A stretch of 60,716 bases of DNA, the filler included, from Hausera hauseri (Eukaryota): the NCBI GenBank assembly GCA_046269625.1. It is 11 parts of 11 records of this genome, joined end to end, with 100 filler letters (N's around TTAATTAATTAA, not from the genome) between each part and the next. Parts side by side here need not be neighbours in the genome. Positions count along the whole stretch, not along the records: positions 38,206 to 42,516 come from JBJURY010642552.1; 10 more parts are not named here. One strand, 5' to 3'. A program made the translations under genes and the position numbers. The notes under the pieces were generated by a model that saw only the letters and a list, made by a program, of their open reading frames with translations, made no database searches and was not told the origin of the DNA. Shown here in pieces: positions 4,924 through 60,006 of the stretch; within the stretch, counting starts at the first letter, position 1; each line of letters begins with the position of its first letter.

Positions 4924-5276
4924 CCTTCTTTACCAAGTTTGAGTAGCATTTCATTGGTGATGTGGTCTGGCCCTGGTGCTTTTTTGAGTTTCATCTTGTT
5001 AAGACTAGACTTGAATTCAGATGTAGTGAATTCGTCATAAAAAGCGCTATTGTTGGCTTTCTGTGTTTTCATCATGCGTTTGGTCAGAGTTGTGATGGCT
5101 TTGTCCACCATGGGTCTTTCACATGTCTTGTTGACTTCAGCAAATAATGTATTCAATGCTTGGGCTTTCTGTTTGTCTGTGTTGGCTGTGTTGTTGTTTC
5201 GGAGCTGCATAGGTGTGGCATGTTTCCTCTGTGAGGTCCCCGCCAGGCAATCTTTCACTTTTTCTTCTATGATCAC
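4924..5276 (-). mobile_element. Non-LTR retrotransposon (LINE) ORF2 fragment just upstream of the RT domain
   Basis: 'KAQALNTLFAEV...FTTSEFKSSLNKMKLKKAPGPDHITNEMLLKL' is the canonical KAPGPD pre-RT motif. Confidence 0.85.
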
Positions 5277-16800: not shown

Positions 16801-17400
16801 TGGGGACTTTGCTGTTTAGTGCTGCAATATCAACGGCTCGTTGCCTTTGAATTTTTGGTGGATCATATGAAATATCTTCCATAGCACATTTTAATCCTGT
16901 TTGCTGCTGCTTTATAGATTTTGGTTGCTGCGTCAAGGTGTGCTGCGTTGAAATATATGAAACTGGCTGTGCAGGATCTGGAACTGGTTGTAAATCAGCA
17001 ACAACAGCAGGATTATGTTGCTTATTGAAGATGGTCTTCTTTGACTTTGACTTGAAGTCTGTCAAATGAGCCTTGTGATTTTCATAAAACTGCATGTATT
17101 CTGCGCCGCATACAGTCTCGCATCTTGGCCGAATATAATATTGGATCCGGTTGAATAGTAGCGGAGTGTATCATGGCAGTTGTGCGAATTGTGTACTGTG
17201 ATGTGCAATACGCATAGGAAGTGCAGTTTTAAATTTTTTGTGTAACGTATGACTTAATCGGTATATTCTCTTTCTTCGGCTTGGTAAAGGAAGTCAGATG
17301 TTGTTTGTAGGCATTGTAGAATTCTTCATAACTGGTTCTTCACACTACCTCACATGTAGGATATAATTTTCAGTCTTGTTGTAATTGTGACTGAAATATT
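13877..17400 (-). mobile_element. Second pseudogenised protein-primed PolB (different Polinton/adintovirus-like family)
   Basis: 'GSSYIQLP', 'VRDYGHFTG..AACNNCN', 'LIFHNLSGY', 'FVDSFRFM', 'KRKGVFPYD', 'YCDVYLKTD', 'KRGIRGG', 'YFDANNLYG', 'NKPIYVG', 'FVALISKMYA'; many stops and frameshifts; internal N10 gap at 14115. Confidence 0.9.
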
Positions 17401-25329: not shown

Positions 25330-26547
25330 CCCTGCACATCAAGTTTTGAATTCGTGCATATCGATATCGTTGGCCGTCTTCCTCCAGACAACGGGCATCA
25401 ATTCTTCCTCACCATGATGGACCGTTTCTCGCGATGGTCAGAAGCCATTCCTTTGCGGAGCACAAATACCGACACTGTATCTGACGTTTTCATTCGCACA
25501 TGAATCAGAAAGTTTGGATCACCTCGCTTCATCATCACGGACGAGGGTCCACAGTTTGAATCCAACCTGTTCAAATCCCTTGTTAACCGATTGGGGATCC
25601 ATCACATACATACTATGCCTTATGACCCCCAATCGAATGGCCTTCTAGAACATTTCCACCAAACATTGAAAACGTCACTAAGAATTCTGGCAGAGTCCAG
25701 CACTAGTTGGACGAATCTTCTTTCGTTTCTTCTGCTCGGCTGGCGGAACACTCCGTCCACTTCTACAGGATGCTCACCTATTAAAACCTTATTCGGAGCT
25801 CCTGTACAATCATTACTCAAACTAACCGCCCTAGACGACACTGCCACGGATGAGACGATACGGGCGACGCAAAATCACTTCGTTGAGGTCAGCAAAGATT
25901 CGTTCTGCAGGCTACTTCACAAATACAAAACATACTTACCCGAAGATCTGTATTCGGCAAAATTCGTATGGTTAGAGAATCAGGCGCCTTGGGGTTTCCA
26001 GCCAAGGTACCTGGGGCCCTATAAACTGATACAGCTGCACTCACACAACGCCATTATCTTTAAAGATGGCAGAGAACTTACAGTACACATTAAGAACTTA
26101 AAGCCCGCTTTTTTTGTCGACGACACCTTACCAACCGACACGTCAACCTCTTCTCATTCCTCCACTCCCTACTATCCATATATTTGTTGCTACATAATTT
26201 CCACTTCCTCTTTCGCGCCTAGTCCTGCTCCATCATTTTCTACATTTTCTACTTCTATTCCTACCACACCCTATGTTTCATCTTCCTCTTCCACTCTTTC
26301 ACTCAACACCATTCAAATCTCTACTCCAACTTTTTCCTCGCTTCCTTTATGCGCCACTACACCTTTTATCACTCCTTCGTCTTCTAACACTCTTTGCAAT
26401 GCCTTTAACCATCCGTCTTCAATAATCCCTCTTCCTTCTTCGTCCTCTTCTTTTTATTCCGACTCATCTTCGCACGACACAACACCTACATCAAAACCTA
26501 CCAATTTTTCCCCAACCTCAATCGCTTCAAACAAACACATCGCATAA
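25330..26547 (+). mobile_element. Gypsy integrase with a long Ser/Thr/Pro-rich tail
   Basis: 'VHIDIVGRLP..TMMDRFSRWSEAIPL..IITDEGPQFES..PYDPQSNGLLEHFHQTLK..PRYLGPY..VHIKNLKPA'; G-rich PPT-like tract at about 26704-26715. Confidence 0.92.
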
Positions 26548-26879
26548 AGACACAACACGCAGAATCATATTTAGCAAGTATAGCAGGAAAAAATCAGTTG
26601 AAGGTACCCAAAGTGTTATTCACACTAAGCTCAACTGACACAAGCACTTTTCGTTTTGCGATTTTTTCTCTGTCCTTTTACACTTCATAGTTTCTACTTT
26701 GCCACGGGGGTGATATGGTGCCTACATCGACCGTCACCCTCTGGCCCATTTGGTTGGGCACGGGCGGGCCTCCGTTGCCGCCTCGTCGGGTCGATAGACG
26801 GGCCCGGATATTCCGCCTCGAGAACTTCACAAGACAATCTACTCACACACGATTAATTTATTTCAATGTCATCGATTGA

Positions 26880-28400
26880 AGCTGAGTTTTAAAAGTACAA
26901 GAAATTGATTTTATGCTTCAGGCTTTACTCTATTCAAAAGTGAAAAGTTTACTGAATGTATTGCAGCATGTAAAAAGGTTCTCGTAAAAAAACGAAAGGA
27001 TCATGCGGCTTTGTCGTTCAATGGAATTATACCATACTCGGTCAATAATTGCAGATAATTTGAATGCAGCTATTAATGCTAATGTACTTATCTATTTCTT
27101 GTTTTAGTGGACCTGGGTGACACACAGAATTATCGTTTCGAGAAACGCTTTGATTCCCAAAGGCTCAAATTATTCATTCATTATATCTCGGTGATATTAT
27201 TCATGATGGCTTTCTAATATATCCTCAATTATTCACAAAATCTCCGAGGTCGGTTATTTTATAAATAAAAGTTGTCAGACCCCGAATTTATGTTCACATA
27301 ACAAATTCAACATTCAAGAATAACGCTGGTCATGGTACCACAATCACCATTCTTTATGAATATCCAATCGATTATTCCATCTATGAAGATGATAAATCGT
27401 ATATTCGATCCGGAATTATTGGAGGTGTTATCCACACACCAAACATGATTCAAAACATTGCCCATCCAAATAAAACCAATAAGATTTACGAAAACTGCCA
27501 AATTAATAATTACTCCTCAGTGTTTTGGGGGTTATAGCATACCATTCGGTGAATCCCAATACGGCTTTTATTGAAAAGTAGACAATTGTTGCTTTGTTTA
27601 AGTGACAAAAAACCAATAAATTTTTTACTCGTCTTAATTTGAATTTAATAGCCATCTTTGAATTGGAATTTTCTTTGTATTTTCTATTACGGAATATTTT
27701 CACCGTAGTAATCGTGTTCTAAATTGGATTTTAATTTTTGCTTATTACTTCGAAAATTCCGCTTTTAATACTCGTTCTATCAACGACAATTTTCCAAGAA
27801 TTTGATTCTTTTACTGCATAATTTTGACGAATTTTATTAGGCCGATAATAGTTTACAAAACGTCGAACGAAATGTAAACAGAAAAAGAACCAATGTTAGA
27901 TTTTAAATACAGCAAGCAATTTGTTGATTCCATTGAAAAGAACGGTACCGACTTTAACATGCCGCTTGAATTTGGTTGGGCAAAATACTCATGAAGTAGC
28001 TCCATAGTATGTGCTGGTTGCTGTGGAGGTGCAATTGAGCACTGCTCAAATCTGAGCGTAAGTTTTGAAGCATAGCAGAAGGTTTCATATTCTCCGTCTG
28101 TCGCTTGGTGAAGACCAGGTTGAACTGGTCCTGTTGGGATGGCAGATATGCTTTGCATATGGCTGCTTTGATTTTGTCAAACGGCTTTTCATCTGACAGC
28201 AACGTGTCCAGATCCGTTATTACAGCGAGCGTCATTGGCTGTAGGTATTGAATCAATGTTAAGGCCTTGTTTAGTTGGACGGTTTAGTTAGACATAGAAC
28301 CATCTTAATGGCGTTCCGTCCGAACCTATAAAAAAGTGAGACAGGCTAATTTAAGTGGTTTTGCCGGTGCTGCTGAAGCCGTTTCATCTTTTTTGTCGGA
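26880..28400 (-). mobile_element. Highly decayed Gypsy element (gag plus pol traces)
   Basis: Gag 'KIKAAICKAY..MKPSAMLQNLR..ILWSYFMSILPNQIQA' (27954-28256); pol traces downstream are weak. Confidence 0.6.
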
Positions 28401-38205: not shown

Positions 38206-38745
38206 AAACAATAGGCTGTGAATCATTTGCAATGCTTTTTGATGACATTGATTCTAATTTAAAAGAAACTGATTCAAAAGTGTATAATTAGTCGGCTCAA
38301 GCTCAGGTCTCAGTAACAAATGAAATATATGATTTTTAAAACGTTTGAAATTGTTTTTCTTTTGTCCAACAGAATATTATAGAACTCGAGCTGTTCCACC
38401 AGTTAAATAGTCTGACTATCTAAAAACTGTCGGAGAATTTTTATCACCAGAAATTCGCGTTTTGTGGACTAGTCCAAAAGTTGTTTCGAAATTTATTTCG
38501 GTACTGCCGATCATTAAACTATCTGACGTTTTGCGACGGTTTCCTGTTATGTGACAATATTCAAGTTAATGACTATGTTCAACGTAGACTTTTTTTGGAT
38601 CCGTATTGTTGCCGTTCATCGAGTCTAATTCAGTACGTCAGCGGAGTACTTACTAATCCTAATTGCTAGTTCGAGGCTAATTATATTGCAACCCACACGT
38701 TGACTCAATGGACACAATGTTATAGAAGTAGTACAACCATTGATA
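38206..38745 (+). pseudogene. OGA: O-GlcNAcase (GH84 domain) fragment, intronless, disabled
   Basis: '[85 protein letters not shown]'; stops and frameshifts. Confidence 0.92.
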
Positions 38746-38759
38746 ATCTTACTGATAAT

Positions 38760-39134
38760 TATCGACTGTCAGAAGTTATCGAATTGATGGGCGATAGAAC
38801 TGAAGATTATATTAAAGAACTTAACCGTAATTTGCAATACGGTGTTCAGTTAGTTGTTACTTTGTTGTCTGCTGTTAGACAAGATCGTTATAATGCAATA
38901 AAGAAGTCATGTTATGTTGAAAATCCAGTTCTCAATCAGGTTGTTTTGGGCAACATAAGGAAGGATAGACCAAAATCAAACAGCGTTGCAATTGATATTG
39001 CTCTTGATATTAATGTGAAACTGGGCGGTGAGTTGTGGTCAGTAAAGATTCCAATTAACAAATTTACGGCCGTTGGTTTGGATGTTCGGCATGATTCTGC
39101 ATCCAGGGGCCGAAAGGGAGGCGAAAAATCTGTC
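38760..39134 (+). pseudogene. PIWI: Piwi-clade Argonaute fragment B (MID domain and start of PIWI domain)
   Basis: 'DRTEDYIKEL..QLVVTLL..RQDRYNAIKK..PVLNQVV..IALDINVKLGGELWSVKIP..VGLDVRHD'. Confidence 0.9.
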
Positions 39135-39428
39135 AGTGACATTTATTCGTGTAAAGAAGCGACGAAGTTACTTGGATATTGGAGAATAACGGTTGAGCAG
39201 GATACCGTTGAAATTAATGCGTGTAAAATGAATCCAGAGAAGATTTATTTTCGTAATGATGTTAACGTTAGTGCTGGTGAAAATGCTGAATTTAAACAGG
39301 TATTGGCTCACAATCGCGTAACTGCTGGAATTCGAATCGAGAATTGGTTGTTAATTGCTCAAAGAAGTTTGGTAAGCAAGGCTCAGGCATCAAGTCAGGC
39401 GTTGTGCAGTAAGGGTCCAAAAGTCGGT
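39130..39428 (+). pseudogene. PIWI: Piwi fragment A (L2 linker, natively upstream of fragment B)
   Basis: 'EATKLLGYWRITVEQDTVEINACKMNPEKIYF..AEF..IENWLLI..KAQ..QAL..GPKVG' resembles Piwi L2 (cf. 'L.DWGL.....GRIL..EKI...ADW...LDNWLLI..A..L.....P.MG'). Confidence 0.75.
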
Positions 39429-40207
39429 GTTCCTCAAATGATTGCTAAAAATTTAACGTTTCCAGAGAAGGTTACAATTTATAACATCAATTATCTCCAA
39501 CAATTGGTCAACAATGGATTCATGTACCCTGGTGCTACATTTGTTATAAGAGACAATGGCGAACGACTTGACCTGAAAAGACGGGCAGATACATCAGACG
39601 TTCGATTACAGTACGGATACACCGTGGAGCCTCATGTGCTTAACGACGATTTTGTGGTATTTAGTCGACAGCCAACTGCACAAAACATCAATGATGTGCC
39701 ATCGAGTGAAAGTTTTGCCTTTCTCAACATTTCGATTCAACCTTAGTGTCACAACACCTTACAACGCCGATTTTGATGGTAATGAAGTGAATTTGCATTT
39801 GCCACAATCCGTCGAAACAAAGGCCTAAGTATCAGATCTAGCCCGTGTCACGAAATTGGTCACTACTAATCAAAGTAACAAGCCAGTTATGAGTATCGTA
39901 CAGGATACACTAACTGCGTCCAAGAAAATGACTCGTAGAGACGTGTTTATCAATTGTGCCAAAATGATGCATCTTCTAATGTACTTGCCGACACGGAATG
40001 GTCGTTTGCCGAAACCAGTAATTTATAAGCCGTAAATGTTGTGGACGGGAAAACAATTGTTTTCACTAATAATTACAGGACGAATAGATTGTACTATGTT
40101 TCATTCGACTCATCCAGAAGTGGTAACCGCACAAGATAAGTATGTCACCATATGATACACATGTGCTTATTGAGGACGGTAAAGTGATTGAGCGAATGTT
40201 GTGTAAA
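39423..40207 (+). pseudogene. POLR2A: RNA polymerase II largest subunit fragment including the catalytic loop, disabled
   Basis: '[102 protein letters not shown]'. NADFDGD is mutated to NADFDGN; one or more frameshifts and stops. Confidence 0.95.
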
Positions 40208-40270
40208 CGATATCAATTGGATTTAGTTGGTCTACTGCAGTTTGTTTTAAATAAAATCAAAGACGGCCAT
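40202..40270 (+). pseudogene. THOC2: THO complex subunit 2 fragment (23 codons)
   Basis: 'KRYQLDLVGLLQFVLNKIKDG' resembles the recalled THOC2 segment '[21 protein letters not shown]'. Confidence 0.65.
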
Positions 40271-40478
40271 TGTGCTGAAATGTTCAAAAACTTCTTTTTT
40301 TCAGTTTTCGTTCTCGAAATTGAAAATCGAACATCCTGTCAGCTATTATTTCCTCGAGGACGCTATTAAAATGTTGAATTATTAGCCCCATGATTCATCG
40401 AAAAAGAAAAAATCGAGAGATGACGATGGAGATCAAGAAAGTACTGTTAGCGATACTGATGAGCTCGATGTAGATTGC
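40271..40478 (+). pseudogene. DHX9: DEAH RNA helicase A/maleless fragment
   Basis: 'EMFKNFF..VLEIENRT/HPVSYYFLEDAIKMLNY*PHDSSKKKKSRDDDGD..DVDC' resembles recalled DHX9 'MFCEYFF..IIEVYGRTYPVQEYFLEDCIQM..PPKDKKKKDKDDDG..DANC'. Confidence 0.75.
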
Positions 40479-41065
40479 AAATTCCCCTATAACAATTCAT
40501 CCTTGACTATTGAAGAAATCGAGCGTTTATGTTCCAGTGCATCCGATAAAGAGACTCTGAGTAATTCATATAAAGGTAATGCAACAATTGTTGATGATTT
40601 AACTAGCGTAAAATTAAACTATATCTTTGGCATGCAGTTCCTTCACGGTTGCTACAAGCCAATTTTGTTAATTTTGTATGAACCTATCGGGACAATTATG
40701 CGACATGCACTCACACGAAAGGACATATGCTGTGTGTTAAAATTATCGTTGAACCTACAAAAACGTACCACTCCACTTACATGGCATTTAAAAACTCTAC
40801 CTCAATTGTTTTAAAGTTGGCTTTATATCACGACCTATTGGCGGGACCATTATTTTGTCAATAAATATTGATTTATTTAAATCAAAGCCAATTTTCTTGC
40901 GGATTTTCGCTTAATGGACATGCCAAAAATCTACAAATTTCCCATTAAGACATACGACTTTATTCAATCCACTGACATTCGATGGCTGCGTTCGACACTA
41001 TAAATAACGAACAGCTGTTGGTTTCTACGACAACTGCAAAAGCATTTATTGTAAAATTCATTCTG
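40479..41065 (+). pseudogene. CPSF1: CPSF160 beta-propeller fragment, disabled
   Basis: 'KLNYIFGMQFLHGCYKPILLILYEP..RKDICCV..LSLNLQKR..P..WHLKTLP/..RPIGG../LIYLNQS..GFSLN' matches CPSF160; frameshifts. Confidence 0.88.
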
Positions 41066-41109
41066 AAAATGGACACGAGGATGGTTATTGGTCCACGCAC
41101 GAAAAAACA

Positions 41110-41308
41110 ATATAAAACGGTTTATAAACCACGTGTAAATAGGCAACCACCGGTTGCTTTTCCAGGTTCTGAAACAGCAAAAAGTAACAAAGGTGCTATG
41201 ACGATATCAAATACTAATACTATAGTTCAACTATCCAAGTCCCTACATAAGTCCTTCAACATTCTAATTCCTAAAGGAAGTTTTGTGCATTGGTACTCTG
41301 GAAGGGGA
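41110..41308 (+). pseudogene. Divergent alpha-tubulin C-terminal-domain fragment
   Basis: 'YKPRVNRQPPVAFPGSETAKSNKGAMTISNTNTI..LHKSFNILIPKGSFVHWYSGRG' aligns without gaps to '[56 protein letters not shown]'. Confidence 0.8.
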
Positions 41309-41309
41309 T

Positions 41310-42516
41310 CTTTGAGGCAGAATTCGGTCACCCCACAATTTGGGGCCCGCCGCGACGGGGCTGAGGTCTTGGCCGTCAACCCTGCGCCGGTTGGTCAGAC
41401 GGCGCCTTTCGCGTCAGCCCGGCAACACACCCCCGGGCACACAACCTCTCCTCTATTCATTTTTCTTTTTCTCAATAATAAACACATACACACTTTACAT
41501 TGCATTTACATATTGCAACCCTTCGTACCTTCATTTCTTTCTTACTCCACTCTTTCGATTTTTATCTTACTCATAACGGTTCTATAGTACTCCTCACCGG
41601 AACCCTACCATCTTTCTTAATCCATACTTGCCTCCACATACATTTCCGTACCCATAATGGCATGAACTCATCGCCAACCATAAACACCACGGATAAAACC
41701 ATTACGAAACCAAAATCTGTCATATTTCTTCAAAAACCCATTCCTACCCTTGCTAGCGACCTCTCACCTATTACCTCCTCCGCTCCTTTTCCTCACTGCA
41801 CCGAATTCTTTAGTGACAACCAAGGCTCCAGCAAAACTTGGTTGCAATTCCATAAACTATGGCTACAGGCAAATAATATTACTGATTCTTTAACCAAGGT
41901 ACACAGTCTTCTCTTCTTACTCCCTAATAACATCAAAACGCGAATTCACAACATTATCGAAGTCTTTGAACTTCCTGACCCATATCCCAACTCTTCAACG
42001 CCGTTCTTAAGATCACAGAACTCTCCATGGACACATCATACAACGTTTCTTCCACGACAATGTTATAGGCACCCAACGACCATCAGAATTCTTACGCACC
42101 TCTTTGGCACATCTACGTACCCTCGGCGTCACTAAAGAACACAATCCAGAACTACTGCGCCACTACTTCCTCAACGCGTTACCCATCCAAATCCGGGCCC
42201 TACTTACCGTGGTGGAAGACTCCACACCTCTTGAGAAATTGGACGAATTAGCCGATAAGACACACGACGTTCCACAGGTAAATTCCCCACCAGTTGTTTC
42301 GGCAGCAGTTGCCGCTAACGATATTCAAACCAATAACACATCAATAGAACAACAGCTTAAGCAGCTACGTGCTAAAAATATGACACTACACGTAACAATC
42401 AACAATATCAATAATAAACAAGCGAACTCACCCTGTCCCGCCGGATGGATGTTGTCGCTGACCGCGTCTGTTTTGCGTCTAGAAACCGCTCATCATCGCC
42501 TGCGCGTTTGTCGATC
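41310..42516 (+). mobile_element. Gypsy (CsRn1-like) 5' leader and frameshifted gag
   Basis: GC-rich ..CA-att-TGGGG leader, pyrimidine-rich UTR, gag 'EFF..KTWLQ..WLQANNITDSLTKVH..LP', 'PSEFL.HL..ELLRHYFLNALPIQIRALL..LEKLDELADK'. Confidence 0.8.
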
Positions 42517-42616: not shown

Positions 42617-45600
42617 CAAAATGCTTTGTACTATGGGGTGGGAATAGTGAAACCCGGCAGCGGCCACAAAATGCTTTGTACTAAGGAGTGGGAATAGCGA
42701 AAGCCAACAGCTGCAATATAATGCTTCGTATTGAATATTAATCTGCAATTTTGGGCGGTCAAATAGGAAATTTACATTGGTCCAAAGCGCTCAAATCCCC
42801 CTCGGAAAATTAATATCGCAAAATTTAAACAAAAAGGGTGAGAATAAACAAATCCAACAGCGGCCACATAATGCTTTGTACTAGGGGATGGGAATATTAA
42901 AACCCAAAAGCGACAAGATAATGCTTCGTATTGAATATTGAATTGCAATTCTGGGGCGTCCGAGGTAGGAAATTCATATTGTACCAATGTGCACACGACC
43001 CCTCGGAAAATCAATATCGCAAAATTTAAACTAAAATGGTGGGAATAATGCAACCCAACAGCGGCCACTTAATGTTTGTACCGGGGGGTGGAAATATTGA
43101 AACGCAACAGCGGCCAGCTAATGCATTGCACTACGGGGTGGCAATAGTGAAATCCAACAGCGGCGACATAATGCTTTGTACCAGGGGGTGGAAACAGAGA
43201 AATCCAACAGCGGCCACATAAAGCTTTTTACAAAGGGTTCGGAATAGAGAAATCCAACAGCGGCCACATAATGCATTGTACTAGGGGATGGGAATATTGA
43301 AACCCAACAGCGGCAAGATAATGCTTCGTATTGAATATTGATTTGCAATTCTTGGGGGTCCGAGAGAGGAAATTCATATTGGCCCAGTGTGCTCACGTCC
43401 CTCTCGAAAAATTAATATCGAAAAATTTAAATAAAAAGGGTGGGAATAATAAAACCCAACAGAGGCAACATAATATTTGTACCAGAGTGTTGGAATAGTG
43501 GAGCCCAAGAGCAACTTGATAATGATTTGTACTAGGGAGTGAGAGTGGTGAAAACCAACAGCAAGTATACAGTTCTTTGGACTACGCGTGGGAATAGTGA
43601 AACCCAACGTCGGCCAGCTAATGCTTTGCACTAGAAGGTGGTAATAGTGAAAACCAACAGCGGCCATATAATTCTTTGGACTACGTGTGGGAATAGTGAA
43701 ACCCTGCAGCAGCCAGCTAATGCATTGCATTAGGGGGTGGGAAGAGTGAAATCCAACAGCGGCCACATAATGCTTTGTACCAGGGGTTGGAAATAGAGAA
43801 ATCCAACAGCTGCTGGATAATACTTTGTCCAAAGGGGTGGGAATAGTGAAACCAAAAAGCGGCCACATAATACTTTGTACTATGGGTCGGAATAGTGAAA
43901 TTCAACAGCGGCGACATAATGCTTTGTACCAGGGGTTGGAATAGAGAAATCCAACAGCGGCCACATAAAATCTTTGTACTAGGGAGTGAGAATAGTGAAA
44001 CCCAACAGCGGCCAGATAATACATTGTACTACGTGGTGGGAACAGTGCAAGCCAACAGCGGCAAGATAATGCTTCGTATTGAATATTGATTTCCAATTCT
44101 GGGGTGTCCGAGACAGGAAATTTATATTTGCCCATTGTGCTCACATCTCCCTCGGAAAATCAATATCGCAAAATTTAAAAAAAAGGTTGGAAAAACGAAA
44201 CCCAACAGCGGCCACATAATGTTTGTGCCAGGGGTTGGATATAGAGAAATCCAACAGCGGATAGATAATACTTTGAACGAGGGGGTGGGAATAGTGAAAG
44301 ACAACAGCGGCCAAATAATGCTTTGCACCAAGGATTAAAAATAGTTAAACACAACAGCGGCCACATAATTCTTTGTAGCAGTGACTGAAAACAGTGAAAG
44401 CCAACAGCGGACACATAATGCTTTGTAATAGGGTGTGGGAATATTGAAAGTCAACAGCAGCAAGATAATGCTTCGTATTGAATACTGATTTCCAATTCTG
44501 GGGAGTCCGAGATAGGAAATTTATGTTGGCGCAGTGTGCTCACTTCCACCTCGGAAAATAATATTGCAAAATTTAAACAAAAATGGTGGGAATAATGAAA
44601 CCCAACAGAGGCAAAATAATGCTTGTACCAAGGAGTGCGAAGAGCGGAGCCCAACAGCGACCAGATAATGCTTTGTACTAGGAGCTGGGAATAGTGAAAG
44701 CAAACAGCAGCTACACATTTCTTTGTTCTATAGGGTGGGAATAGAGAAATCCAACAGCGGCCACATCATCATTGCACTAGTGGGTGGGAATAGCGAAACC
44801 CAACAGCGTCCACATATTTCTTTTTACTATGGCGATGGAGTAGAGAAATCCAACAGCGGCCACATCATGCTTTGCACTAGGGGGTGGGAATAATGAAACC
44901 CAACAGCGGTTACATAATGATTTGTATCATGGGATGGGAACAGTGAACCTCGTCAGCTGCCACATAATTCTTTGTACTAATGCGTAAGAATAGAGAAACC
45001 CAGCAACGGCCAGATAATACTTTGTACTAGGGGTGGAAATAGTGAAACCCAAGAGCGCCCATATAATTCTTTGTACTGGGCGGTGGTAATGAAGAAGTCC
45101 AACAGCGGCCACATCATGCTTTGCACTAGGGGGTGGGAATAGTGATACCCAACAGCGGCCACGCATTTCTTTATACTAGGGGGTGCAAATAAAGAAATGC
45201 AACAGCGGCTAGATAATACTTTGAACTAGGGGGTGGGAATAGTGAAACTCAAAGCGGCCACGTAATGCTTTGTTCTAGGGTTTGCAAATAGAGAAATCCA
45301 ACAGCGGCTAGATCATACTTTGTACTAGTTGGTGGGAATAGTGAAACCAAAATGCAGCCACATAATGCTTTGTACCAGAAGTTGGAAAGAGAGAAATTCA
45401 ACAGGGGTTAGATAATACTCTGTACTAGTTGGTGGGAATAGTAAAACCAAAATGCAGCCACATAATGCTTTGTACCAGAAATTGGAAAGAGAGAAATTCA
45501 ACAGGGGTTAGATAATACTTTGTACTAGGTTTGGGAATAGTGAAACCCAAAACGGCCACATAAAGCTTTGTACTAGGGTTCGGAATAGAGAAATCCAACA

Positions 45601-48600
45601 GCGGAAATAAAATTCATTGGACTACGGGTGGAAATAGTAAAATCCAAGAGCGGCCAAATAATACTTTGTACCAGAGGGTGGGAATAGAGAAATCCAACAG
45701 CGGCTAGATAATACTTTGAACGAGGGGGTGGGAATAGTGAAAGTCAACAGCGGCAACATAACTCTTTTTACCAGGGAGTAAAAATTGTAAAACGCAACGG
45801 CGGCCACATAATTCTTTGTACCAGCGAGTGAAAATAGTGAAATCCAAGAGCGGCAACATAATGCCTTTTACTAGGGCGTGGGGATAGTGAAACACAACAG
45901 CGGCCAAATATTTCTTTGTACTATGGGGAGGGAACAGAGCAATCAAACAGCGGCCACGTCATGCTTTGCACTAGGGGGTGCGAATAAAGAAATCCAACAG
46001 CGGCTAGATAATACTTTGAACTAGGTGGTGGGAATTGTGAAACCCAAATGCAGCCACATGATGCTTTGTACCAGGGGTTGGAAATAGAAAAATCCAACAG
46101 CGGCTAGATAATACTTTGGGCTAGGGGTGGGAATAGTGAAACCCAACAGCGGCAAGATAATGCTTCGTACTATGGGGTGGGAATAGTGAGGCCCAACAGC
46201 GGCAAGATAATGCTTCGTACTATGGGGTGGGAATAGTGAGGCCCAAAAGCGGCCACATAATGATTTGTACCAGGGAGTAGGAATAGGGAAACCCAACAAT
46301 GACCAGATAATACTTTGTTCTAGGGAGTGGGAATAATGAAAGCCAACAGCGGCCACATAAGTCTTTATACTACGGGTGGGAATAGTGAAAGCCAACAGTG
46401 GCCACATAAGTCTTTATACTACGGGTGGGAATAGTGAAAGCCAACAGTGGCAAGATAATGCTTCGTATTAAATGTTGATTTCCAATTCTGGGGGATCCGA
46501 GATAAAAAATTTATATTTGCCCAGTGTGCTCTCATCCCCCTCGGGAAGTCAATATCGCAAAATTTAAACAAAAAGGGTGGGAATAATGAAACCCAACAGC
46601 GGCCACATAATGTTTGTGCCAGGAGGTGGAAATAGTGAAGCCCAACATCGACCAGATAATGTTTTGTAGTAGGGGTTGGGAATAGTGAAAGCCAACAGCG
46701 GCCAAATAATGCTTTGCACTAGGGTGTGGGAATAGAGAATCCAACTGCGGCCAAATAATACTTTGTATTACAGGGTGGGAACAGTGAAACCCAACAGCGA
46801 CCACATAGTGCTTTGTACTATGGTGTGGGAATATTGAAATTCAACAGCGGCAAAATAATGCTTCGTATTGAATATTGATTTCCAATTCTGGGGGGTCGGA
46901 GATAGGAAATTTCAGTTCGCGCAGTGTGCTCACATCCTCCTCGCAAAATCAATACCGCAAAATTTAAACAAAAATAGTGGGAATAATGAAACCCAACAGA
47001 GGCCAAATAATGTTTGTACCAAAAGGTGGGCATAGTGAAACCCAACAGCGGCCACATATTTCTTTGTAGTATAGGGTGGGAGTAGAGAAATCCAACAGCG
47101 GTCACATCATACTTTGCACTACGGGGTGGGAATAATGAAACTCAACGGCGGCCACATAACGATTTTTGCCAGGGGGTGGGAATAGTGAACCACCGCAGCT
47201 GCCACATAATTCTTTGTACCAGTGTGTGAGAATAGAGAACCCAACAACGGCCAGATAATACATTGTACTATGCGGTGGGAATAGTGAAACCCAAGAGCGC
47301 CCACATAATTCTTTGTACTGGGGGGTGGGAATAGAGAAATCCAATAGCTGCCACATAATGTTTTGTACTACGGGTGGCAATAGTGAAACACAACAGCGGC
47401 CACATAATGCTTTGTCCTAAATGGTGCAAATAGAGAAATCCAACAGCGGCTAGATAATACTTTTTCTCGGGGGTGGGAATAGTGAAACCCAAAAGCGGCC
47501 ACGTAATTCTTTGTACGAGGGGTCGGAATAGTGAAATCCAACAGATGTCACATAAAGCTTTGTACTAGGGGGTGTGAATAGTGAAACCAACAGGGGCAAC
47601 ATAATGCTTTGTAACAGGGTGTGGGAAAACTGAAACCCAACAGCGGCCAGCTAATGCTTTGTACTAGGGATGGGAATAAAGAAATCCAACATCCACTAGA
47701 CACTACTTAGTACTACGGGGTGGGAATATTGAAACCCAACCGCGACAAGATAATGCTTCGTATTGAATATTGATTTGCAATTTTGGGGGGTACGAGTTAG
47801 AACATTTATATTAGTGCAGTGTGCTCACATCCCCCTCAGAAAATCAATATCGCAAAATTTGAACAAGAAGGGTGGGAACGAAGAAATCAAACAGGCCACA
47901 AAATGTTTGTACCAGGAGGTGGGAATAGTGAAGCCCAAAAGCCACCAGATAATGCTTTGTACTAGGGGTGGGAATATTGAAAGCCAACAGCAGCCAGATA
48001 ATGCTTTGTAATAGGGGGTGGGAATAGTGAAACACAACATCAACCAGATAATGCTTTGTAATAGGGGGTGGGAATAGTGGAACACAAAAGCGGCCTGATA
48101 ATAATTTGTACTAGGGGCTGGGAATAGTGAAACCCAACAACGGCCACATAATACTTTGTACTAGTTTGTGGGAATAGTGAACCTCAATAGCGGCCACATA
48201 ATTCTTTTTATTAGAGTGTGAGAATAGTAAAACCGAACAACGGTCAGATAATGCTTCGTATTGACTATTAATTTCCAATCCTGGCAGGTCCGAGATAGGA
48301 AATTTACACGGGTGCAGTGTGCTCACATCCCCCTCGAAAAATGAACATTGCAGTTTTTGAAAATTTAAACTAAAAGGGTTGGGAATAGTGAAACCCAACA
48401 GAGGCCAGATAATGCTTTGTACCAGGGGTTGGGAATCGTGAAAGTCCAAAGCGCAACATAATGCTTTGTACCAGAGTGTGTGAAAAGTGAAACCCAACAG
48501 CGGACACATAATGCTTTGTACTAAGTGTGGGAATAGTGAAACACAACAGCGGCCACATAATACTTGGCACAAGGGGGTGGAAATAGTGAAAGTCAATAGC

Positions 48601-50320
48601 GGCCACATAATGCTTTGTACATGGAGGTGCGAATATTGAAGCCCAACAGTGGTCAGATTATACTTTATTCTAATGGGTGGGAACAGTGGAAGCCAGCAGC
48701 GGCAAGATAATGCTTCGTACTGAATACTGATTTCCAATTCGGGGGATCCGGGATAGGAAACTTATATTGGCGCAGTGTGCTCACATCCTCCTCGGAAAAT
48801 CAATATCGCAAAATTTAAACAAAAAGGGTGGGAATAATGAAACCCAACAGCGGCCACATAATGTTTGTGCCAGGAGGTGGAAATAGTGAAGCCCAACATC
48901 GACCAGATAATGCTTTGTACTAGGGGGTGGGAATAGTGAAAACCAACAGCGGCCGCATAATGATTTGTACTAGGGGATTGGAATAGTGAAATCCAAAAGC
49001 GGCCAGATAATACTTTGTACTAGGGGGTGGGAATAGTTAAAGCCAACATCAGCAAGGAACCCAACCTCGACCACATAATGCTTTTTACCGGCGAGCAAAA
49101 ATAGTAAAACCCAACAGCGGCCACATAATTCTTCGTACTACGGGTGGGAAAAGAGAAACCCAACAACTGCCACATAATGCTTTGTACTATCGGGTGGGAG
49201 TAGTGAAACCCAGAAGCGGCCACATAATACTTTATACTAGGAGGTGGGAATAGTGAATCCCAACAGCCGCGACATAATGCTATGTACTAGATAGTGAGAA
49301 TAGTATAACCCAACAACCACCAAATAATACTTTGTACTAGGGTGTGGGAATAGTGACACCCAACAGCGTCCAGCGGATTCTTTGTACTAGGGGTGGGAAT
49401 AGTGAAACCCAACAGCGTCCAACGAATGCTTTGTACCATGGGTTGGGAATAGTGAAGCCCAACAGCGACTATATAATCCTTTGTACTAGGGGGTGGGAAT
49501 AGTGAAAACCAACAGTGGCCAAATAATTCTTTGTACTAAAGAGTGGGATTAGAGAAACCCAACAGCGGCCACATCATGCTTTGTATTAGGGGGTGGGAAT
49601 ATTAAAGGCCAACAGCGGCCAGATAATGCTTCCTATTGAATATTGATTTCCAATTCTAGGGGGTCCGGGATAGGAAATTTATATTGGCCCACTGGGCTCA
49701 TATCCCCCGCGAATAATCAATATCGCAAAATTTAAACAAAAGTGTGGGAATAATGAAATCCAACAACGGCCAGATATGGCTTTCTTTAAAAATTGATTAT
49801 TGAATATTGATTTCCAATCCTTGGGGGTCCCACATAGAAAATTTATATTCTCCCAGTGTGGTCACATCCCCCTCGAAAAATGAATATTGCACTCTTTGAA
49901 AATTTAAACAAAAGGGGTGGAAATAGTGAAACCCAAAAGCAGCCAGATAATGCTTTTTACTAGGGGTTGGCAACAGTGAAACTCAACAGCGGCAACATAA
50001 TCCTTTGTACCAGGGTGTGGGAATAGTGAAACCCAACAGCGGTTACATAATGCTTTGTATTAGAGGGTGGGAATAATGAAACCCAACAGCGGTCACATAA
50101 TGCTTTGTACTGGGGCTGGGAATAGTAAAACCCAACAGCGGCCAGATAATGCTTCTTACTGAATATTGATTTCCAATTCTGGGGTATCCGGGATAGGAAA
50201 TTTATCATGGCGTATTGTGCTCACATCCCCCTTGGAAAATAAATTTCGCAAAGTTTAAACAAAAAGGGTGGGAATAATGAAATCCAACAGCGGTTACATA
50301 ATGTTTGTAATAAACTGTGG
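42617..50320. repeat. Satellite: 50-bp monomer array with about 13 interspersed 150-bp variant units
   Basis: Consensus ATAATGCTTTGTACTAGGGGGTGGGAATAGTGAAACCCAACAGCGGCCAC (period 50, e.g. 42621 to 42671). Long unit starts atgcttcgtattgaatattga at about 42721, 42921, 43321, 44069, 44468, 46458, 46858, 47753, 48251, 48710, 49626 and 50149, plus a partial copy near 49795. Confidence 0.97.
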
Positions 50321-50797
50321 NNNNNNNNNNNNNNNNNNNNNNNNNNNNNNNNNNNNNNNNNNNNTTAATTAATTAANNNNNNNNNNNNNNNNNNNNNNNN
50401 NNNNNNNNNNNNNNNNNNNNAGTAAAAGCCTCTGCCTATTCATCTACCAAGCAAACGAGAATTGTTCTCCTCATTAATTAATTAGTAATTTACAGTCGCT
50501 TCAAAAGTAAATTGGTAAGGATTGAACAATTTTCGTCATTACCTAACTGCATTTTCATATAAAAATTAAATTGATATAGTAAGTTGCTTATGCAGCACAA
50601 TGATCCAATTTACGAAAATATGCAGCTGTGAAACAAAATTTTAATTATCATTTATGTTGATACTAGGTGACGTTTTTTGTCTTGCCTAACAACCATGGAA
50701 ACCCAGTTATATCTCATCATAGTTATTGCAATCGACATTTTTACTCAACAATCCGAAATTCATCATAATAAATTAGTGGTCTTATGACACAACATTA

Positions 50798-52837
50798 ATG
50801 GAGAACATAGCCAACAACAATCTGGTAAATCTGATCACAGACTCATGCAATGGATACCTCTGCATAATTCCAGCTGCCTACGAACTCTTAATGGTATTTC
50901 AACGAACTCTACATGATACCAATGAAAATGAAAGATCCATCAATGGGAAATTCTTAAACTGCACCAGTGAAAACCCATTTGTTGGAACGATTAAATTCAG
51001 TGGGGTACTTCTGTCCGTCATTGCCATGGCAACAATGGCCTTTATGGTCAAACGAGTGTCATGTGGTAGACAGTGTTGCCATGGTCGACCTGGACTGGCA
51101 TTACCAATGGAAATGCTGGAATCCCACGATCATCTTGTGGAATATTCCTTCGTATTTCTGTCGACAACTGACGATGTCTACGTGAGTATATTCGAAGGAA
51201 CAAACATATTTGGATCTCAATTACCAATAGTAAAATTTTTCATCAAATTACTTCTCGTCTTTTCCATTGTGATTACTTATTATCCTTTGTTTTCAGGTGT
51301 GCGACATCGATGTTTGTATGGCTACATCATGGCATTGATTTTATCGATTATTTTGTTCAGCATCGTCATGTGTCAGAATTATTTCGTGATTATTTGTCTC
51401 ACAAAAATAAAAATTATTCCGTTTCTTTTTACTGTGATCTTCAGTACGACGTTTGACTTGGGTCTTATCATCATTTTTATGATGAGGATTGTGAACCATA
51501 TCAGATGGAATGGATGCAAATTATGGGAGAAATCAATCAGCAGCGATGAACAGAAAAATCAATATTGGTTCATTTATGTGAAGGAATTATTGAGGGACAA
51601 TAATTTTGAATTGGTTCAGATGGAGGAGACTCATAAAAGTACTGTGAAAGAAGTTTTGTCCAATTTCAAATGCAGCGCCATGAGGAACAAAATGAGGAAG
51701 AATATATACAGGGAAATTCCCGGATTCAGTTTGCCTCCACGGTTGATTATTGGGATACTATTTGGATTGTACTTTGCGTATCGAATATTCATTGACCAAA
51801 TTTATGATATGACCCCAATGGCATGGAATTTCATTGCGGCTATTCAATTGCTATACCCCACAACAAAAACAGACACTACTGCTGCATTCAAGGTCATCAC
51901 AGGCAACTTATCTCAATATTCAACTAAACAAGTCCTCAATTCATTCCGTTACATCATTTTCCTTTATGCCAATATTTTACTAGGGTGTCTCATATTTTCT
52001 GTCATCAGCAGCTTCCTCGTCACCATCATCCAATGTTTCCTCACTGTACGCAGTTATCGATTGAAATTTCTCCAGCTAACTCAAACTGGATTCTCCTCCA
52101 TGATAAATCTCGATAAAGCACCTGAACCTCATTCATTGATATTGGGATTTGTGAGATTTAGTGGATTCCAGGCTGCTTATATTCTGTGGGCAATTCTGGC
52201 AATGATCTTCTTCCAGTTTGTTGTAACATTCTTTGCTGTTGGAGTGTTCCTCGTGCCGTTGATCTACATCCCAAATTCGTGGAGCAGATCCGTTCTTATC
52301 AATTACAGTCCCGTCATTATTACATCGTTCATTTTCAACTATCTTCAATCGGTGATCATCAAATATGCATTCGTAAAGGAGAGGGGCCAACTTATGGAGG
52401 TGAACAATAGAAATGCATTTACTATCTACAGCCATGTTGTCTTCTTTGTCAATGCCATGATGGGATTCTTCAGTTCCATAAAGAAGGCCATTGTGTGGAT
52501 AGTTTGTGGAATTTTTTCCATGGGTCGAATTGATTTCAACTCTCTACCGGACTATTTGAAAGGGTGTGATGGAGGATTTATGAGTTTTCTTGGGTTCCTG
52601 TACACTGAACAGTATCACCACAATCCAATACTGCGCTGTTTTGTTAGTCTACTGCGTGATAAAGATAGCACGGTGGATGAAGGTTCGTTATTTGGAAACC
52701 AAATTTTATTGGATAACAGAAATGGTAGAAAATCAAAGAAGTATCGAAACAAATGGCTAGTAACGTACACTTTAATCCATAACCACAAACTTCTCGGTGA
52801 GAGGAAATTATTTCTGTCCAACAATATCATACCCTGA
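50798..52837 (+). CDS. STRA6: STRA6/RBPR2-family (retinol-binding-protein receptor-like) multi-pass membrane protein
   Basis: Intact 679-aa ORF with many TM segments and family motifs 'GRPGLALP', 'YYPLF', 'RFSGFQAAYILW', 'NNR..F', 'GRID', 'DGGF.SF.GFL..E..HHNP', 'RNKWLVTYTLIHN..L'. Confidence 0.88.
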   Translation: MENIANNNLVNLITDSCNGYLCIIPAAYELLMVFQRTLHDTNENERSINGKFLNCTSENPFVGTIKFSGVLLSVIAMATMAFMVKRVSCGRQCCHGRPGLALPMEMLESHDHLVEYSFVFLSTTDDVYVSIFEGTNIFGSQLPIVKFFIKLLLVFSIVITYYPLFSGVRHRCLYGYIMALILSIILFSIVMCQNYFVIICLTKIKIIPFLFTVIFSTTFDLGLIIIFMMRIVNHIRWNGCKLWEKSISSDEQKNQYWFIYVKELLRDNNFELVQMEETHKSTVKEVLSNFKCSAMRNKMRKNIYREIPGFSLPPRLIIGILFGLYFAYRIFIDQIYDMTPMAWNFIAAIQLLYPTTKTDTTAAFKVITGNLSQYSTKQVLNSFRYIIFLYANILLGCLIFSVISSFLVTIIQCFLTVRSYRLKFLQLTQTGFSSMINLDKAPEPHSLILGFVRFSGFQAAYILWAILAMIFFQFVVTFFAVGVFLVPLIYIPNSWSRSVLINYSPVIITSFIFNYLQSVIIKYAFVKERGQLMEVNNRNAFTIYSHVVFFVNAMMGFFSSIKKAIVWIVCGIFSMGRIDFNSLPDYLKGCDGGFMSFLGFLYTEQYHHNPILRCFVSLLRDKDSTVDEGSLFGNQILLDNRNGRKSKKYRNKWLVTYTLIHNHKLLGERKLFLSNNIIP

Positions 52838-53469: not shown

Positions 53470-54338
53470 AGGAAATTCATTTTGATACTATCCTAAAACC
53501 ACGATAAATGCACCGTGTTTTCCCTCAAATCGGTCGGGAAATCCTCTGAAATTTTATAGGTTGGAAAAAATCTTGCGGCATACAACGTGCGTTACGTCGT
53601 TTACATACAATGAAGAAAAATACGATTCTCCAAACCGGAGAATATTTTTCGTCATATCACCAATATTCAGTTGGTTAAAACCAAATAAAACAATCCGACA
53701 CGACTGAAACAATTGACAATAAAAGTATTTCTCTGGAATATTCAACTGTTTTTTGTCCGAATGATTCCATAAACATTCTATCCAGAATTTATTTATTAGT
53801 TTTATATCTGACGATTTCGATTTGATCAACTTCAAAACGGGATTCAATCGAACCAATTGCATCCGATATGGGACAAAGTGTGTTGCAGTATGAATTTCAT
53901 CCGTCAACAATCCACCCATAAACAACACCTTCAATTTCAATGTTTCAACGAATTCGTTGGTAAATCCACGAAAACAAATCTTTTTCGATTGTAAAATACA
54001 ATTTATATTTGGATTTGACAATTTCTCTTTATAATCAGTTAAAAATTTACACAGGGCATTAACATCAACAACAACGCATGAAAACTTCTTTTCCCATTTC
54101 AATTTAGAATTTCGGTCGTTGACACAAACAACTGCATTGTTGAAATCCGACAGAGAAACATCTCCAACAATCACAGCACGATTGTCATTCACATAATGTG
54201 CATTAATTTTAAAAAAGACAATCTGAATTGGAGACTGAAAAAGATAAATATATGTCAATATTATGAACATTAAAATTCAACCCAATCATAGTTATTAATC
54301 TCGTTATTTGACTCACATTCTTCAACAAAAATCTTCAT
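53470..54338 (-). pseudogene. Tandem-BRCT protein (ECT2-like, TOPBP1 possible), disrupted at the end of the second BRCT
   Basis: Exon 1 at 54338-54282 (MKIFVEEC..), 47-bp GT-AG intron at 54281-54235, then 'ICFRGF..VLFMGG..ATHFV..WIECLW' and 'FQSCRIVLFGF..VTHVVC'. The BRCT-terminal 'VHLSWF*DSI' follows in a shifted frame with a stop. Confidence 0.65.
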
Positions 54339-58441: not shown

Positions 58442-58695
58442 TGGAATATTTAAGATTGTCAACTTTAAAACATTTGTTACGTTAGTATACGAATTATGAA
58501 ATATAGAGGAGTAAATACATATTTTATAATGAAAAATCGATTATTCGAAATATTTGTGAATATAAATTATTGTCTGATTTCCTGAAAATATATTTCCTAA
58601 ATAATTTTGACGAAATTTAACATAACATAACATTAAATATTGCAAATATTTGTTATAAAATTTTACATTAATTCATAAAATAACATAAAAATTCA

Positions 58696-60006
58696 ATGGT
58701 ACAAAAGTTTTCAAATCAGGAAGGAAATGAAAACCAAAATCCAGGAAAAAAGAAATTTGAAAAGCCATTACAAACAACTATTGGACAAAAGAAAAAAAGA
58801 GGTCCAGATTCTGTCAATAAATTACCCATCATAACTCCTATCCTTTCATGTAAATTGCGTGAGTTGAAACTTAAAAGACTTCACGATATGTTACTGTTAG
58901 AAGAAGAATTTGTGGACAGATTTAACCTCATAAAAAATGAACAACCCAATCAAGAGCAGGACGAAATCAATAATAAAACTATTTCAGAACTTCGGGGTCG
59001 TGAACAGCATTTGGCCAGTCTAGAGGAGATCATTGATGATAATCACGCTATTGTAAGTATTTCGGGATATCTGGATTTTTACGTTTCTATTTTGTCAATT
59101 GTGGATAAAGAAAAATTGGAACTTAATTGTACAGTATTATTAAATGAACATCACGATGCTATTGTTGGAGTGCTTGACGACAATATTGATTCTGCAGTTT
59201 CCTCAATGAAAATTAACAAGCCTCCTACAGTAACATATGCCGACATTGGAGGACTTGACAGTCAAATTCAAGAAATCAAAGAATCGGTAGAGATGCCACT
59301 TACCCATCCGGAGAAATATGAAGAAATGGGCATCAAACCACCAAAAGGAGTTATTTTGTACGGTGAACCAGGAACTGGCAAAACGTTACTTGCCCAAGCC
59401 GTTGCTAACCAAACGTCGGCTACATACATTCGTGTCTGTGGATCAGAACTTATAAAGAAGTACAGTGGAGAGGGACCGAAACAAATTAGAGAAATATTTC
59501 GAGTTGCCGGAGAACGTGCTCCTTCAATCATTTTCATCGATGAAATTGACGCTCTCGGCACAAAACGACGTGACACTGACTGTAGTGGTGAGAAAGAAAT
59601 TCAACGAACTATGATTGAATTGCTCACTCAATTAGATGGATTCGATTATAAGAGTGATGTGAAAGTTATCATGGCAACAAACAAAATAGAACCTCTTGAT
59701 CCTGCACTTATTAGACCCGGAAGAATAGATAGAAAAATTTATTTTCCTTTACCAAATTTCGAAACGAGAAAAAGAATCATTCAAGTTCATACGTCAAAAA
59801 TGAATTTGGCATCTGATGTTGATCTAAACGACGTAATACGTAACAACGACCTTTCTGGGGCTGACATAAAAGCCATTTGTACCGAAGCTGGACTCTTGGC
59901 TCTACGAGAACGCCGAATGGTGATAAATATGGACGATTTTCTAAAGGCAAAGAAAAGTCTTCTTTGTGAAAAGAAAGAAGATATTCCGCAGATTCTCTTC
60001 ATATAA
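58696..60006 (+). CDS. PSMC1: 26S proteasome AAA-ATPase regulatory subunit 4 (Rpt2)
   Basis: Intact 436-aa ORF: 'KKKRGPD..KLP', '[59 protein letters not shown]', Walker B IFIDEID, SRH '[14 protein letters not shown]'. Confidence 0.96.

What the first reader, a model, noticed from the sequence alone, without database searches (positions are those of the whole stretch)
38206..41308. Concatemer of fragments from seven unrelated host genes, all sense and intronless, fused to a Gypsy leader
Seen: in 3.1 kb on the + strand, with no spacer DNA and no recognisable introns, the order is OGA (GH84), Piwi MID, Piwi L2, RPB1 catalytic region, THOC2, DHX9, CPSF1, alpha-tubulin, then a Gypsy leader and gag. 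Each piece is an internal 70-800 bp slice of a large conserved gene. The array begins at the contig edge and may be longer. Known: LTR-element RT can template-switch onto co-packaged mRNAs, and Helitrons and Pack-MULEs capture gene fragments. Inference: this is a serial mRNA-capture cassette built by a mobile element. I know of no described animal case with this many essential-gene slices in one contiguous string.
Basis: partly seen in the sequence, partly recalled or inferred. Interest (0 to 1): 0.92.

Follow-up and report, generated by a model that had tools for sequence, protein, structure and literature searches.

The report
Seven host genes stitched in frame
In what is probably a free-living flatworm, a dead copy of a likely jumping gene carries eight coding slices of seven host genes joined end to end, with the reading frame kept at every joint that could be tested, which suggests that the element's RNA likely had to look like an ordinary translatable message to keep spreading.

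Summary
The array is real. OGA, two swapped Piwi pieces, RPB1, THOC2 (weak), DHX9, CPSF1 and alpha-tubulin lie sense-to-sense over 3.1 kb and end at a likely LTR end, primer site and gag. Contigs of one public run bridge several joints, both exactly and as sister copies 86-91% alike, so it is an amplified family and not a chimera. The Piwi piece is closest to planarian DjPiwiC. The window copy is a decayed single frame of about 1,030 codons (6 stops, 10 frame hops, neutral substitutions). Best reading: serial reverse-transcriptase switching among host mRNAs (known, Tan 2016), filtered for translatability, in the LTR position. Not shown: intron loss (the host's intact genes here are intron-poor), the element's left end, expression. 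One frame break looks shared with a sister. The scan noted similar LTR mosaics before on other DNA. New variant of a known kind.

The parts
38206..38775 (+). O-GlcNAcase (OGA, GH84) coding slice, cut by the contig edge; 3 stops, 2 frame hops
   Evidence: Pfam PF07555 E 3e-11 and 1.3e-5; right end from a loose end at 38775 in 2 contigs
38774..39130 (+). Piwi MID and start of PIWI domain (DjPiwiC about 631-747); 2-nt overlap with OGA, in frame
   Evidence: a contig with the natural order enters at 38774 (table 5c)
39131..39431 (+). Piwi L2 slice (DjPiwiC 526-625), placed after the MID slice although it precedes it by only 17 nt in the natural gene; in frame
   Evidence: natural-order contig leaves at 39431 and is in frame
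39423..40205 (+). RPB1 slice, domains 2-3 with the catalytic-loop motif degraded; 2 stops, 2 frame hops; both ends approximate
   Evidence: Pfam PF00623, PF04983; PDB RPB1
40197..40279 (+). THOC2 slice, in frame at both ends
   Evidence: PDB THOC2 E 0.72; loose ends at 40197 and 40279, read as THOC2 from recall
40277..40593 (+). DHX9 slice; 3-nt overlap with THOC2; 1 stop, 1 frame hop; last 120 nt not matched at significance
   Evidence: PDB DHX9 E 6e-5, MLE E 0.09; loose ends at 40277 and 40593
40594..40802 (+). CPSF1 slice (human 197-262)
   Evidence: PDB CPSF1 E 1.2e-10
40803..41090 (+). Unassigned by tools; likely the frameshifted continuation of CPSF1 (recalled resemblance)
   Evidence: no hit; stop-free when read along the frame hops, three of which match indels in other contigs
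41117..41326 (+). Divergent alpha-tubulin C-terminal slice
   Evidence: PDB E 1.5e-9; Atlas Tubulin_C 0.94
41327..41358 (+). Likely last 11 nt of an LTR (ends in CA) and a degenerate primer-binding-like site
   Evidence: sequence; tRNA-Pro likeness is recalled and loose; a 91%-alike contig bridges the joint to tubulin without gaps (record 7)
41359..42516 (+). GC-rich then pyrimidine-rich leader and decayed gag-like frame of a high-copy repeat, to the contig end
   Evidence: DUF7041 E 0.12; summed contig depth 830-5300 against 22-119 over the cargo

Best explanation
This is a dead, decayed copy of a multi-copy element, likely a Gypsy-type LTR retrotransposon of a free-living flatworm, in which eight coding slices of seven host genes are joined in one reading frame directly before a likely LTR end; the slices were likely picked up by reverse transcriptase jumping between host mRNAs, and in-frame products were likely favoured because the element's RNA had to be translated through to survive. 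Shown: the pieces, their order and strand, sister copies with the same joints, in-frame joints and in-frame deletions, neutral decay of this copy. Inferred: (1) priming at the primer site, a very short copy of the LTR end, then a jump to a host mRNA and further jumps at short overlaps, over one or many rounds; (2) the swapped Piwi pieces come from two passes over one RNA molecule (or one circle), because they abut within 17 nt in the natural gene; (3) the mosaic lies in the LTR and so at the front of the element's RNA; (4) RNAs whose first frame stops early are removed by nonsense-mediated decay or by the planarian pioneer-round piRNA filter, so that only frame-keeping captures spread; the chimeric protein itself need not do anything.
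For: Identities. Reality and amplification: exact or near-exact contigs bridge DHX9|CPSF1 (0 differences) and 41090-41117 (1 difference); contigs 86-91% alike bridge Piwi|RPB1, DHX9|CPSF1 (two), the joint before tubulin and tubulin|LTR end. Frame: 5 of 5 testable joints in frame; 6 stops in 1,032 codons along the host frames against 170 in 2,065 off-frame; 8 of 10 frame hops coincide with an insertion of matching length modulo three in another contig. Deletions of net 99 nt (2 contigs, counted once) and 51 nt across the Piwi|RPB1 joint, and 33 nt in CPSF1 (short side 25, weak), are all multiples of three. In-phase share of chance microhomologies is 0.34-0.45 for 1-10 nt, giving 0.0005-0.004 for 7 of 7. 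Six stops fit about 5% neutral decay (2.4 expected per 358 codons), half the distance between sisters. Overlaps of 2 and 3 nt at the two joints where both parents are seen. Precedent for the capture step: PMC5131818. Precedent for the filter: PMC10954484.
Against: Intron loss is not shown: no laid contig carried an intron-like insertion inside a piece (only 6 of 64 loose ends shown), and intact genes in this window run 686, 440 and 240 codons without introns. The 2-3 nt overlaps are near chance length. Record 4 (89% alike) crosses the frame hop at 40330 without a gap, and only 8.5 of 86 depth there differs, so this break looks shared and the family may have gone on copying with a shortened frame. 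Contigs that restore a frame inside a piece may be the parent genes, not sisters. Other contigs carry frame-breaking 2-nt losses (38329, 38408). The frame test is post hoc; DHX9|CPSF1 and CPSF1|tubulin could not be tested firmly. The left end, the 3' LTR and pol are off the contig, so 'inside the LTR' is inferred. All read evidence is one run, perhaps the source of the window. The gag and primer-site calls are weak by tool.
Confidence: 0.52

Rival explanations
1. Same reverse-transcriptase capture, but the frame is kept by mechanism or luck: switches fall on shared peptide motifs or on mRNA fragment ends cut in ribosome phase, and no selection for translation acts.
For: Two joints lie on similar peptides in both parents (Piwi|RPB1, RPB1|THOC2; overlap perhaps 9-10 nt, inferred). 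In-phase bias rises to 0.45 at 9-10 nt. The apparently shared break at 40330. Ribosome-phased mRNA decay ends are recalled knowledge.
Against: Even at 0.45 per event 7 of 7 has chance 0.004. The in-frame deletions arose in already fused copies and two joints have only 2-3 nt overlaps, where the bias is 0.35.
Confidence: 0.22
2. The mosaic is a functional anti-host device: its protein acts as a decoy, or its RNA yields or absorbs piRNAs against Piwi and RNA-processing genes, or borrows their 'self' status.
For: Five of seven donors act in transcription, RNA processing or silencing (established knowledge). The Piwi donor is the PiwiC/SMEDWI-3 type, which binds many mRNAs and may license them (PMC6824462, Discussion).
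Against: Slices are sub-domain fragments, 83-780 nt, with Piwi in swapped order; this copy's substitutions are neutral (11 synonymous of 40 shown, 11.8 expected). Long, abundant stem-cell mRNAs would be captured by chance. All pieces are sense, so antisense piRNAs would need opposite-strand transcription.
Confidence: 0.1
3. DNA-level capture: small DNA circles or repair templates from seven loci were pasted in by microhomology-mediated repair or by a Helitron- or Pack-type element, next to or into an LTR.
For: Circular permutation of the Piwi slice is what an opened DNA circle gives. Intron loss is unproven and the host looks intron-poor. The loose end at 40593 follows a donor-like site and is AT-rich, so 18 nt of intron may be retained (alternatively it is DHX9 coding in another frame).
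Against: All eight slices are coding and sense to gag (chance 1 in 256 without selection); the chain ends 11 nt before the LTR end and primer site; no terminal inverted repeats in the contig.
Confidence: 0.12
4. Assembly or amplification chimera.
For: Short contig, array at its edge; four joints are not among the bridging pieces shown (8 of about 260 pieces shown).
Against: Exact contigs at depth 11-13 and several 86-91% sisters share joints; all 30 bins are covered; decay is spread over the pieces.
Confidence: 0.02

Closest known systems
LTR-mediated retroposition in metazoans (Tan et al. 2016, PMC5131818; abstract, Results parts 1-2 of 3, section 8 and passages read; supplements not read)
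   Same: Partial, internal mRNA slices fused to LTR-element sequence at short overlaps; chimeras of several genes; re-mobilised copies.
   Different: There the cargo replaced part of the internal ORFs in all fly cases; the record is four genes plus an Alu (mouse). Here at least seven genes lie before the LTR end and primer site with gag behind them, and the gene-to-gene joints keep one frame. Whether the mouse 'Super' retrocopy keeps frame may be in supplements that I did not read.
Bs1 of maize (seen only through passages of PMC13317346 and PMC5131818; the original paper was not held)
   Same: An LTR element with slices of several host genes forming a hybrid ORF.
   Different: Three genes, one of them out of frame; internal position; plant; reported as translated and possibly functional.
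Burro giant Gypsy elements of planarians (passages of PMC6431247)
   Same: Planarian Gypsy elements that carry host-like domains in long frames.
   Different: Burro domains are old, whole, and part of the gag-pol polyprotein or accessory ORFs; here the pieces are recent sub-domain slices of housekeeping genes.
SMEDWI-1 pioneer-round filter in Schmidtea neoblasts (PMC10954484; abstract, Discussion part 1 of 2, passages read)
   Same: Supplies the proposed selective force: poorly translated transcripts are turned into piRNAs.
   Different: The paper proposes the filter; in the parts read it does not describe elements that evade it with captured ORFs, and the host here is not shown to be that species.

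Membership tests
LTR-mediated retrocopy (Tan 2016) | Partial host-gene slices fused to LTR-element sequence | tested here: met
   tubulin|LTR-end joint bridged by a 91%-alike contig
LTR-mediated retrocopy (Tan 2016) | Loss of parental introns | tested here: inconclusive
   no intron-like insertion among joints listed; parents not available; intact genes in the window are intron-poor
LTR-mediated retrocopy (Tan 2016) | Microsimilarity at switch points | tested here: inconclusive
   2 nt and 3 nt at the two joints with both parents seen, near chance; about 9-10 nt inferred at two others
LTR-mediated retrocopy (Tan 2016) | Cargo replaces part of the internal ORFs, between two LTRs | tested here: not met
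   cargo ends 11 nt before a likely LTR end and primer site; leader and gag-like frame follow; left end off the contig
LTR-mediated retrocopy (Tan 2016) | No poly(A) tail at the cargo's end | tested here: met
   sequence at 41300-41340
LTR-mediated retrocopy (Tan 2016) | Re-mobilised as several copies | tested here: met
   sisters 86-91% alike share joints; dispersal across insertion sites not testable
Ty3/Gypsy LTR retrotransposon | gag ORF after a primer-binding site | tested here: inconclusive
   DUF7041 E 0.12, below cut-off; primer-site likeness loose and recalled; no match to the two recalled primer motifs at this place
Ty3/Gypsy LTR retrotransposon | pol in the order PR-RT-RH-IN, paired LTRs and target-site duplication | not testable with these tools
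   contig ends at 42516; no genome held; no relatives in metagenome or viral contigs
Helitron or Pack-TIR gene capture | Terminal inverted repeats or hairpin-CTRR end; intron-bearing DNA cargo in mixed orientation | tested here: not met
   no terminal inverted repeat among the 25 longest of 51 pairs; all slices sense and coding; left end unseen

The most novel reading that the evidence does not exclude
Flatworm LTR retrotransposons build a 'translation passport': they overwrite their LTR with slices of essential host mRNAs, and selection keeps the patchwork in one long frame so that the element's RNA passes the stem cell's pioneer-round, Piwi-linked quality check as a normal message. The protein is irrelevant; being translated is the function.
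Probability: 0.3. Interest if true: 0.86.

Novelty: new variant of a known kind. Interest (0 to 1): 0.66.

Why it matters
If the frame is selected, this is a natural read-out of what a stem cell counts as 'a real mRNA', and a way for a transposon to evade piRNA entry without any suppressor protein. It makes the pioneer-round model of planarian piRNA birth testable from genome sequence alone (frame statistics over a family's copies). It is also an extreme exon-shuffling engine: long in-frame chimeras of conserved genes are made and multiplied for the element's sake. Practically, such mosaics will mislead gene annotation, RNAi probe design and small-RNA mapping in these flatworms.

Tried and rejected
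Kunitz domain at 40240-40330 (E 0.14): rejected; loose ends show THOC2 then DHX9. A separate unknown gene at 40800-41000 in the CPSF1 frame: no hit among 1.84 billion representatives, Pfam; probably the wrong frame. Other frames there: no informative PDB hit (a designed Kelch repeat only), no Pfam hit. A chimeric protein of the OGA-Piwi-RPB1 frame in the protein database: 1 hit of 1,389 candidates, an ordinary Piwi (lengths 196-627 only). Planarian DHX9 for the 40440-40593 question: 0 of 54 candidates. Read-through from the cargo into gag, as noted for BEL/Pao elements in earlier findings: one frame is open over 94 codons of leader, but 31% of shuffles are too and it stops at 41585; not supported. 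Special RNA structure at the LTR end and primer site: z 0.06. LTR-end pattern in viral contigs: 33 matches, none alike to leader or gag. Relatives in metagenome and viral contigs: none. No RNA holder listed, no evidence on expression either way. No tRNA genes in the window. Purifying selection on this copy: not seen (the 40 best-supported of 247 differences). Stop-free tubulin despite divergence: not significant (P 0.25-0.74). Earlier-finding look-ups by sequence found nothing. Paper searches for multi-gene, in-frame or LTR-located capture in flatworms or animals gave no description of this arrangement; the library lacks most subscription papers.
Full report
SETTING. The window is a string of short contigs joined by N-spacers; the finding lies on one contig, 38206-42516. 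No whole genome is held. One public run, X1, holds 60% of the contig's sampled words; it may be the source and is not independent support. The Piwi piece is 65-69% identical to DjPiwiC of Dugesia japonica, of the PIWI3/C group with SMEDWI-3 (PMC5750089, passages); the next hits of the 5 found were 46-51% identical. Parasitic neodermatan flatworms lack Piwi (PMC8191739, abstract). The host is therefore likely a free-living flatworm, a triclad or ally.

OBSERVATION. Six-frame Pfam found OGA, Piwi and RPB1 on the plus strand and nothing on the minus strand. PDB sequence searches added DHX9 (E 6e-5), CPSF1 (E 1e-10), alpha-tubulin (E 1.5e-9) and weakly THOC2 (E 0.72). The stretch 40803-41090 has no tool assignment; from recall it reads as the next part of CPSF1 across four frame hops. 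The chain ends at an 11-nt motif ending in CA (41327-41337), followed by a loose primer-site-like sequence, a leader and a gag-like frame (DUF7041 E 0.12) with summed contig depth of 830-5300. The Gypsy label is likely, not proven.

NOT AN ARTEFACT. At 90% likeness 1,783 contigs were laid and all 30 bins were covered; of the 8 pieces shown, one exact contig (depth 13) bridges DHX9|CPSF1, one with a single difference bridges the joint before tubulin, and one with 15 differences in 162 nt bridges tubulin|LTR end. At 80% on the cargo alone 260 contigs were laid; of 8 pieces shown, contigs 86-89% alike bridge Piwi|RPB1, DHX9|CPSF1 (two) and the joint before tubulin. Summed depth (23-167, against 5-16 for most single contigs listed) is no copy number, but the diverged bridging contigs show several sister copies. 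OGA|Piwi, Piwi|Piwi, RPB1|THOC2 and THOC2|DHX9 are not among the few bridging pieces shown.

JOINTS. Six of 64 loose ends were shown. Four mark joints: the OGA side runs on after 38775, the THOC2 side begins at 40197 and runs on after 40279, the DHX9 side begins at 40277. Their translations continue the named proteins (judged from recall; the DHX9 one holds the helicase SAT motif). A contig leaves the Piwi L2 piece at 39431 and enters the MID piece at 38774 after 17 letters, in frame: the natural order, matching DjPiwiC 526-625 and 631-747. So the cassette holds a circularly permuted Piwi slice. OGA|Piwi overlaps by 2 nt, THOC2|DHX9 by 3 nt. The loose end at 40593 (3 contigs) is ambiguous: intron after a donor-like site, or DHX9 coding in another frame.

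THE FRAME. Read segment by segment in the host frames, the cargo has 6 stops in 1,032 codons, against 170 in 2,065 in the other frames; the frames were chosen from the protein matches and, in 40803-41090, from the indels and recall. All 10 frame hops lie inside pieces, none at a firm joint, and 8 coincide with an insertion of matching length modulo three in another contig. The five testable joints (OGA|MID, MID|L2, L2|RPB1, RPB1|THOC2, THOC2|DHX9) are in frame; DHX9|CPSF1 and CPSF1|tubulin are open in one frame but rest on uncertain parents. Among coding pieces of this window, chance microhomologies are in phase 0.34-0.45 of the time. Sister contigs carry deletions across the Piwi|RPB1 joint of net 99 nt (two contigs, one event) and 51 nt, and a weaker 33-nt skip in CPSF1; all are multiples of three. 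Downstream, a 51-nt skip in the leader is a multiple of three and a 95-nt skip in gag is not. Seven firm events in frame have chance 0.0005-0.004; the test is post hoc.

AGAINST AND LIMITS. This copy is dead: 11 of the 40 differences shown are synonymous, 11.8 expected, and 6 stops fit about 5% neutral change. Record 4 crosses the 40330 hop without a gap, so that break seems shared with an 11%-diverged sister; it would end the frame about 1 kb before the LTR end. Frame-restoring contigs inside a piece may be parents. Intron loss was not seen, and the window's intact genes are intron-poor. Sense orientation of all slices fits the RNA route but also follows from frame selection, so it is not independent. 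Read-through into gag is unsupported.

MECHANISM. LTR reverse transcriptases switch onto co-packaged mRNAs at short overlaps and can join several genes (PMC5131818; abstract, Results parts 1-2, section 8, passages). Here the last switch lies 11 nt from the likely LTR end, as expected if the first short cDNA jumped to a host mRNA; the product then sits in the LTR and at the front of the next RNA (inferred; this placement was prompted by earlier notes). The Piwi swap fits two passes over one molecule. For the frame, planarian stem cells are reported to turn poorly translated transcripts into piRNAs during the pioneer round (PMC10954484; abstract, Discussion part 1, passages), and pseudogene-like transcripts feed a second tier of piRNA clusters (bioRxiv 10.64898/2026.01.28.702291, abstract only). 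An element RNA that opens with a long host-derived frame would pass; one with an early stop would not. I put capture by reverse transcriptase at about 0.8 and selection for frame at about 0.65, 0.52 together. I noted the in-frame pattern before seeing the ray note e1-9932620, whose wording on translation I reuse.

COMPARISON AND NOVELTY. It works like an LTR-mediated retrocopy but fails one defining feature, replacement of the internal ORFs. Published records that I saw are four genes plus an Alu in mouse (PMC5131818) and three genes, one out of frame, in maize Bs1 (passages of PMC13317346 and PMC5131818). Burro elements differ (PMC6431247, passages). SMEDWI-3 licensing (PMC6824462, outline and Discussion) underlies one rival. 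A meeting report held nothing relevant (PMC10680173, passages). Seven paper searches found no description of in-frame multi-gene mosaics in the LTR position; supplements of Tan et al. were not read and may bear on frame. The scan's own unchecked notes describe similar mosaics on other DNA of probable flatworms and a ray; they are leads, not support. Verdict: real, new variant of a known kind, interest 0.66.

Noticed in passing
Foreign DNA pick-up or contamination.
   Followed up: partly
window 26700-27600 (+): After an integrase frame (25504-26547) come a purine run, a 130-170 nt GC-rich head and an ATG followed by decayed coding-like AT-rich DNA: possibly the left end of the same kind of LTR mosaic. 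Pfam, PDB and Atlas gave no assignment.
   Followed up: partly
window 50777-52837 (+), 58684-60006 (+), 53554-54276 (-): Uninterrupted frames for a STRA6-like receptor (686 codons, E 3e-59), a divergent proteasome AAA subunit (440 codons) and a BRCT protein (240 codons): the host looks intron-poor, or these are retrogenes.
   Followed up: partly
window 42617-50320: A whole contig of a degenerate tandem repeat of about 58-59 nt with a longer interspersed unit (seen; strong purine skew).
   Followed up: no
window 9760-12748 (+) and 15005-17170 (-): Decayed frames that resemble Polinton/Maverick-type DNA polymerase B from recall; not tested.
   Followed up: no
window 40578-40595: A perfect 12-nt palindrome right at the DHX9|CPSF1 joint, 16 nt long in the contigs that continue the DHX9 side; a possible pause site for the switch.
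   Followed up: no
window 41117-41302: The tubulin slice is only 38% identical to canonical alpha-tubulins yet has no stop: either a divergent paralogue or the oldest slice, nearest the LTR end.
   Followed up: partly
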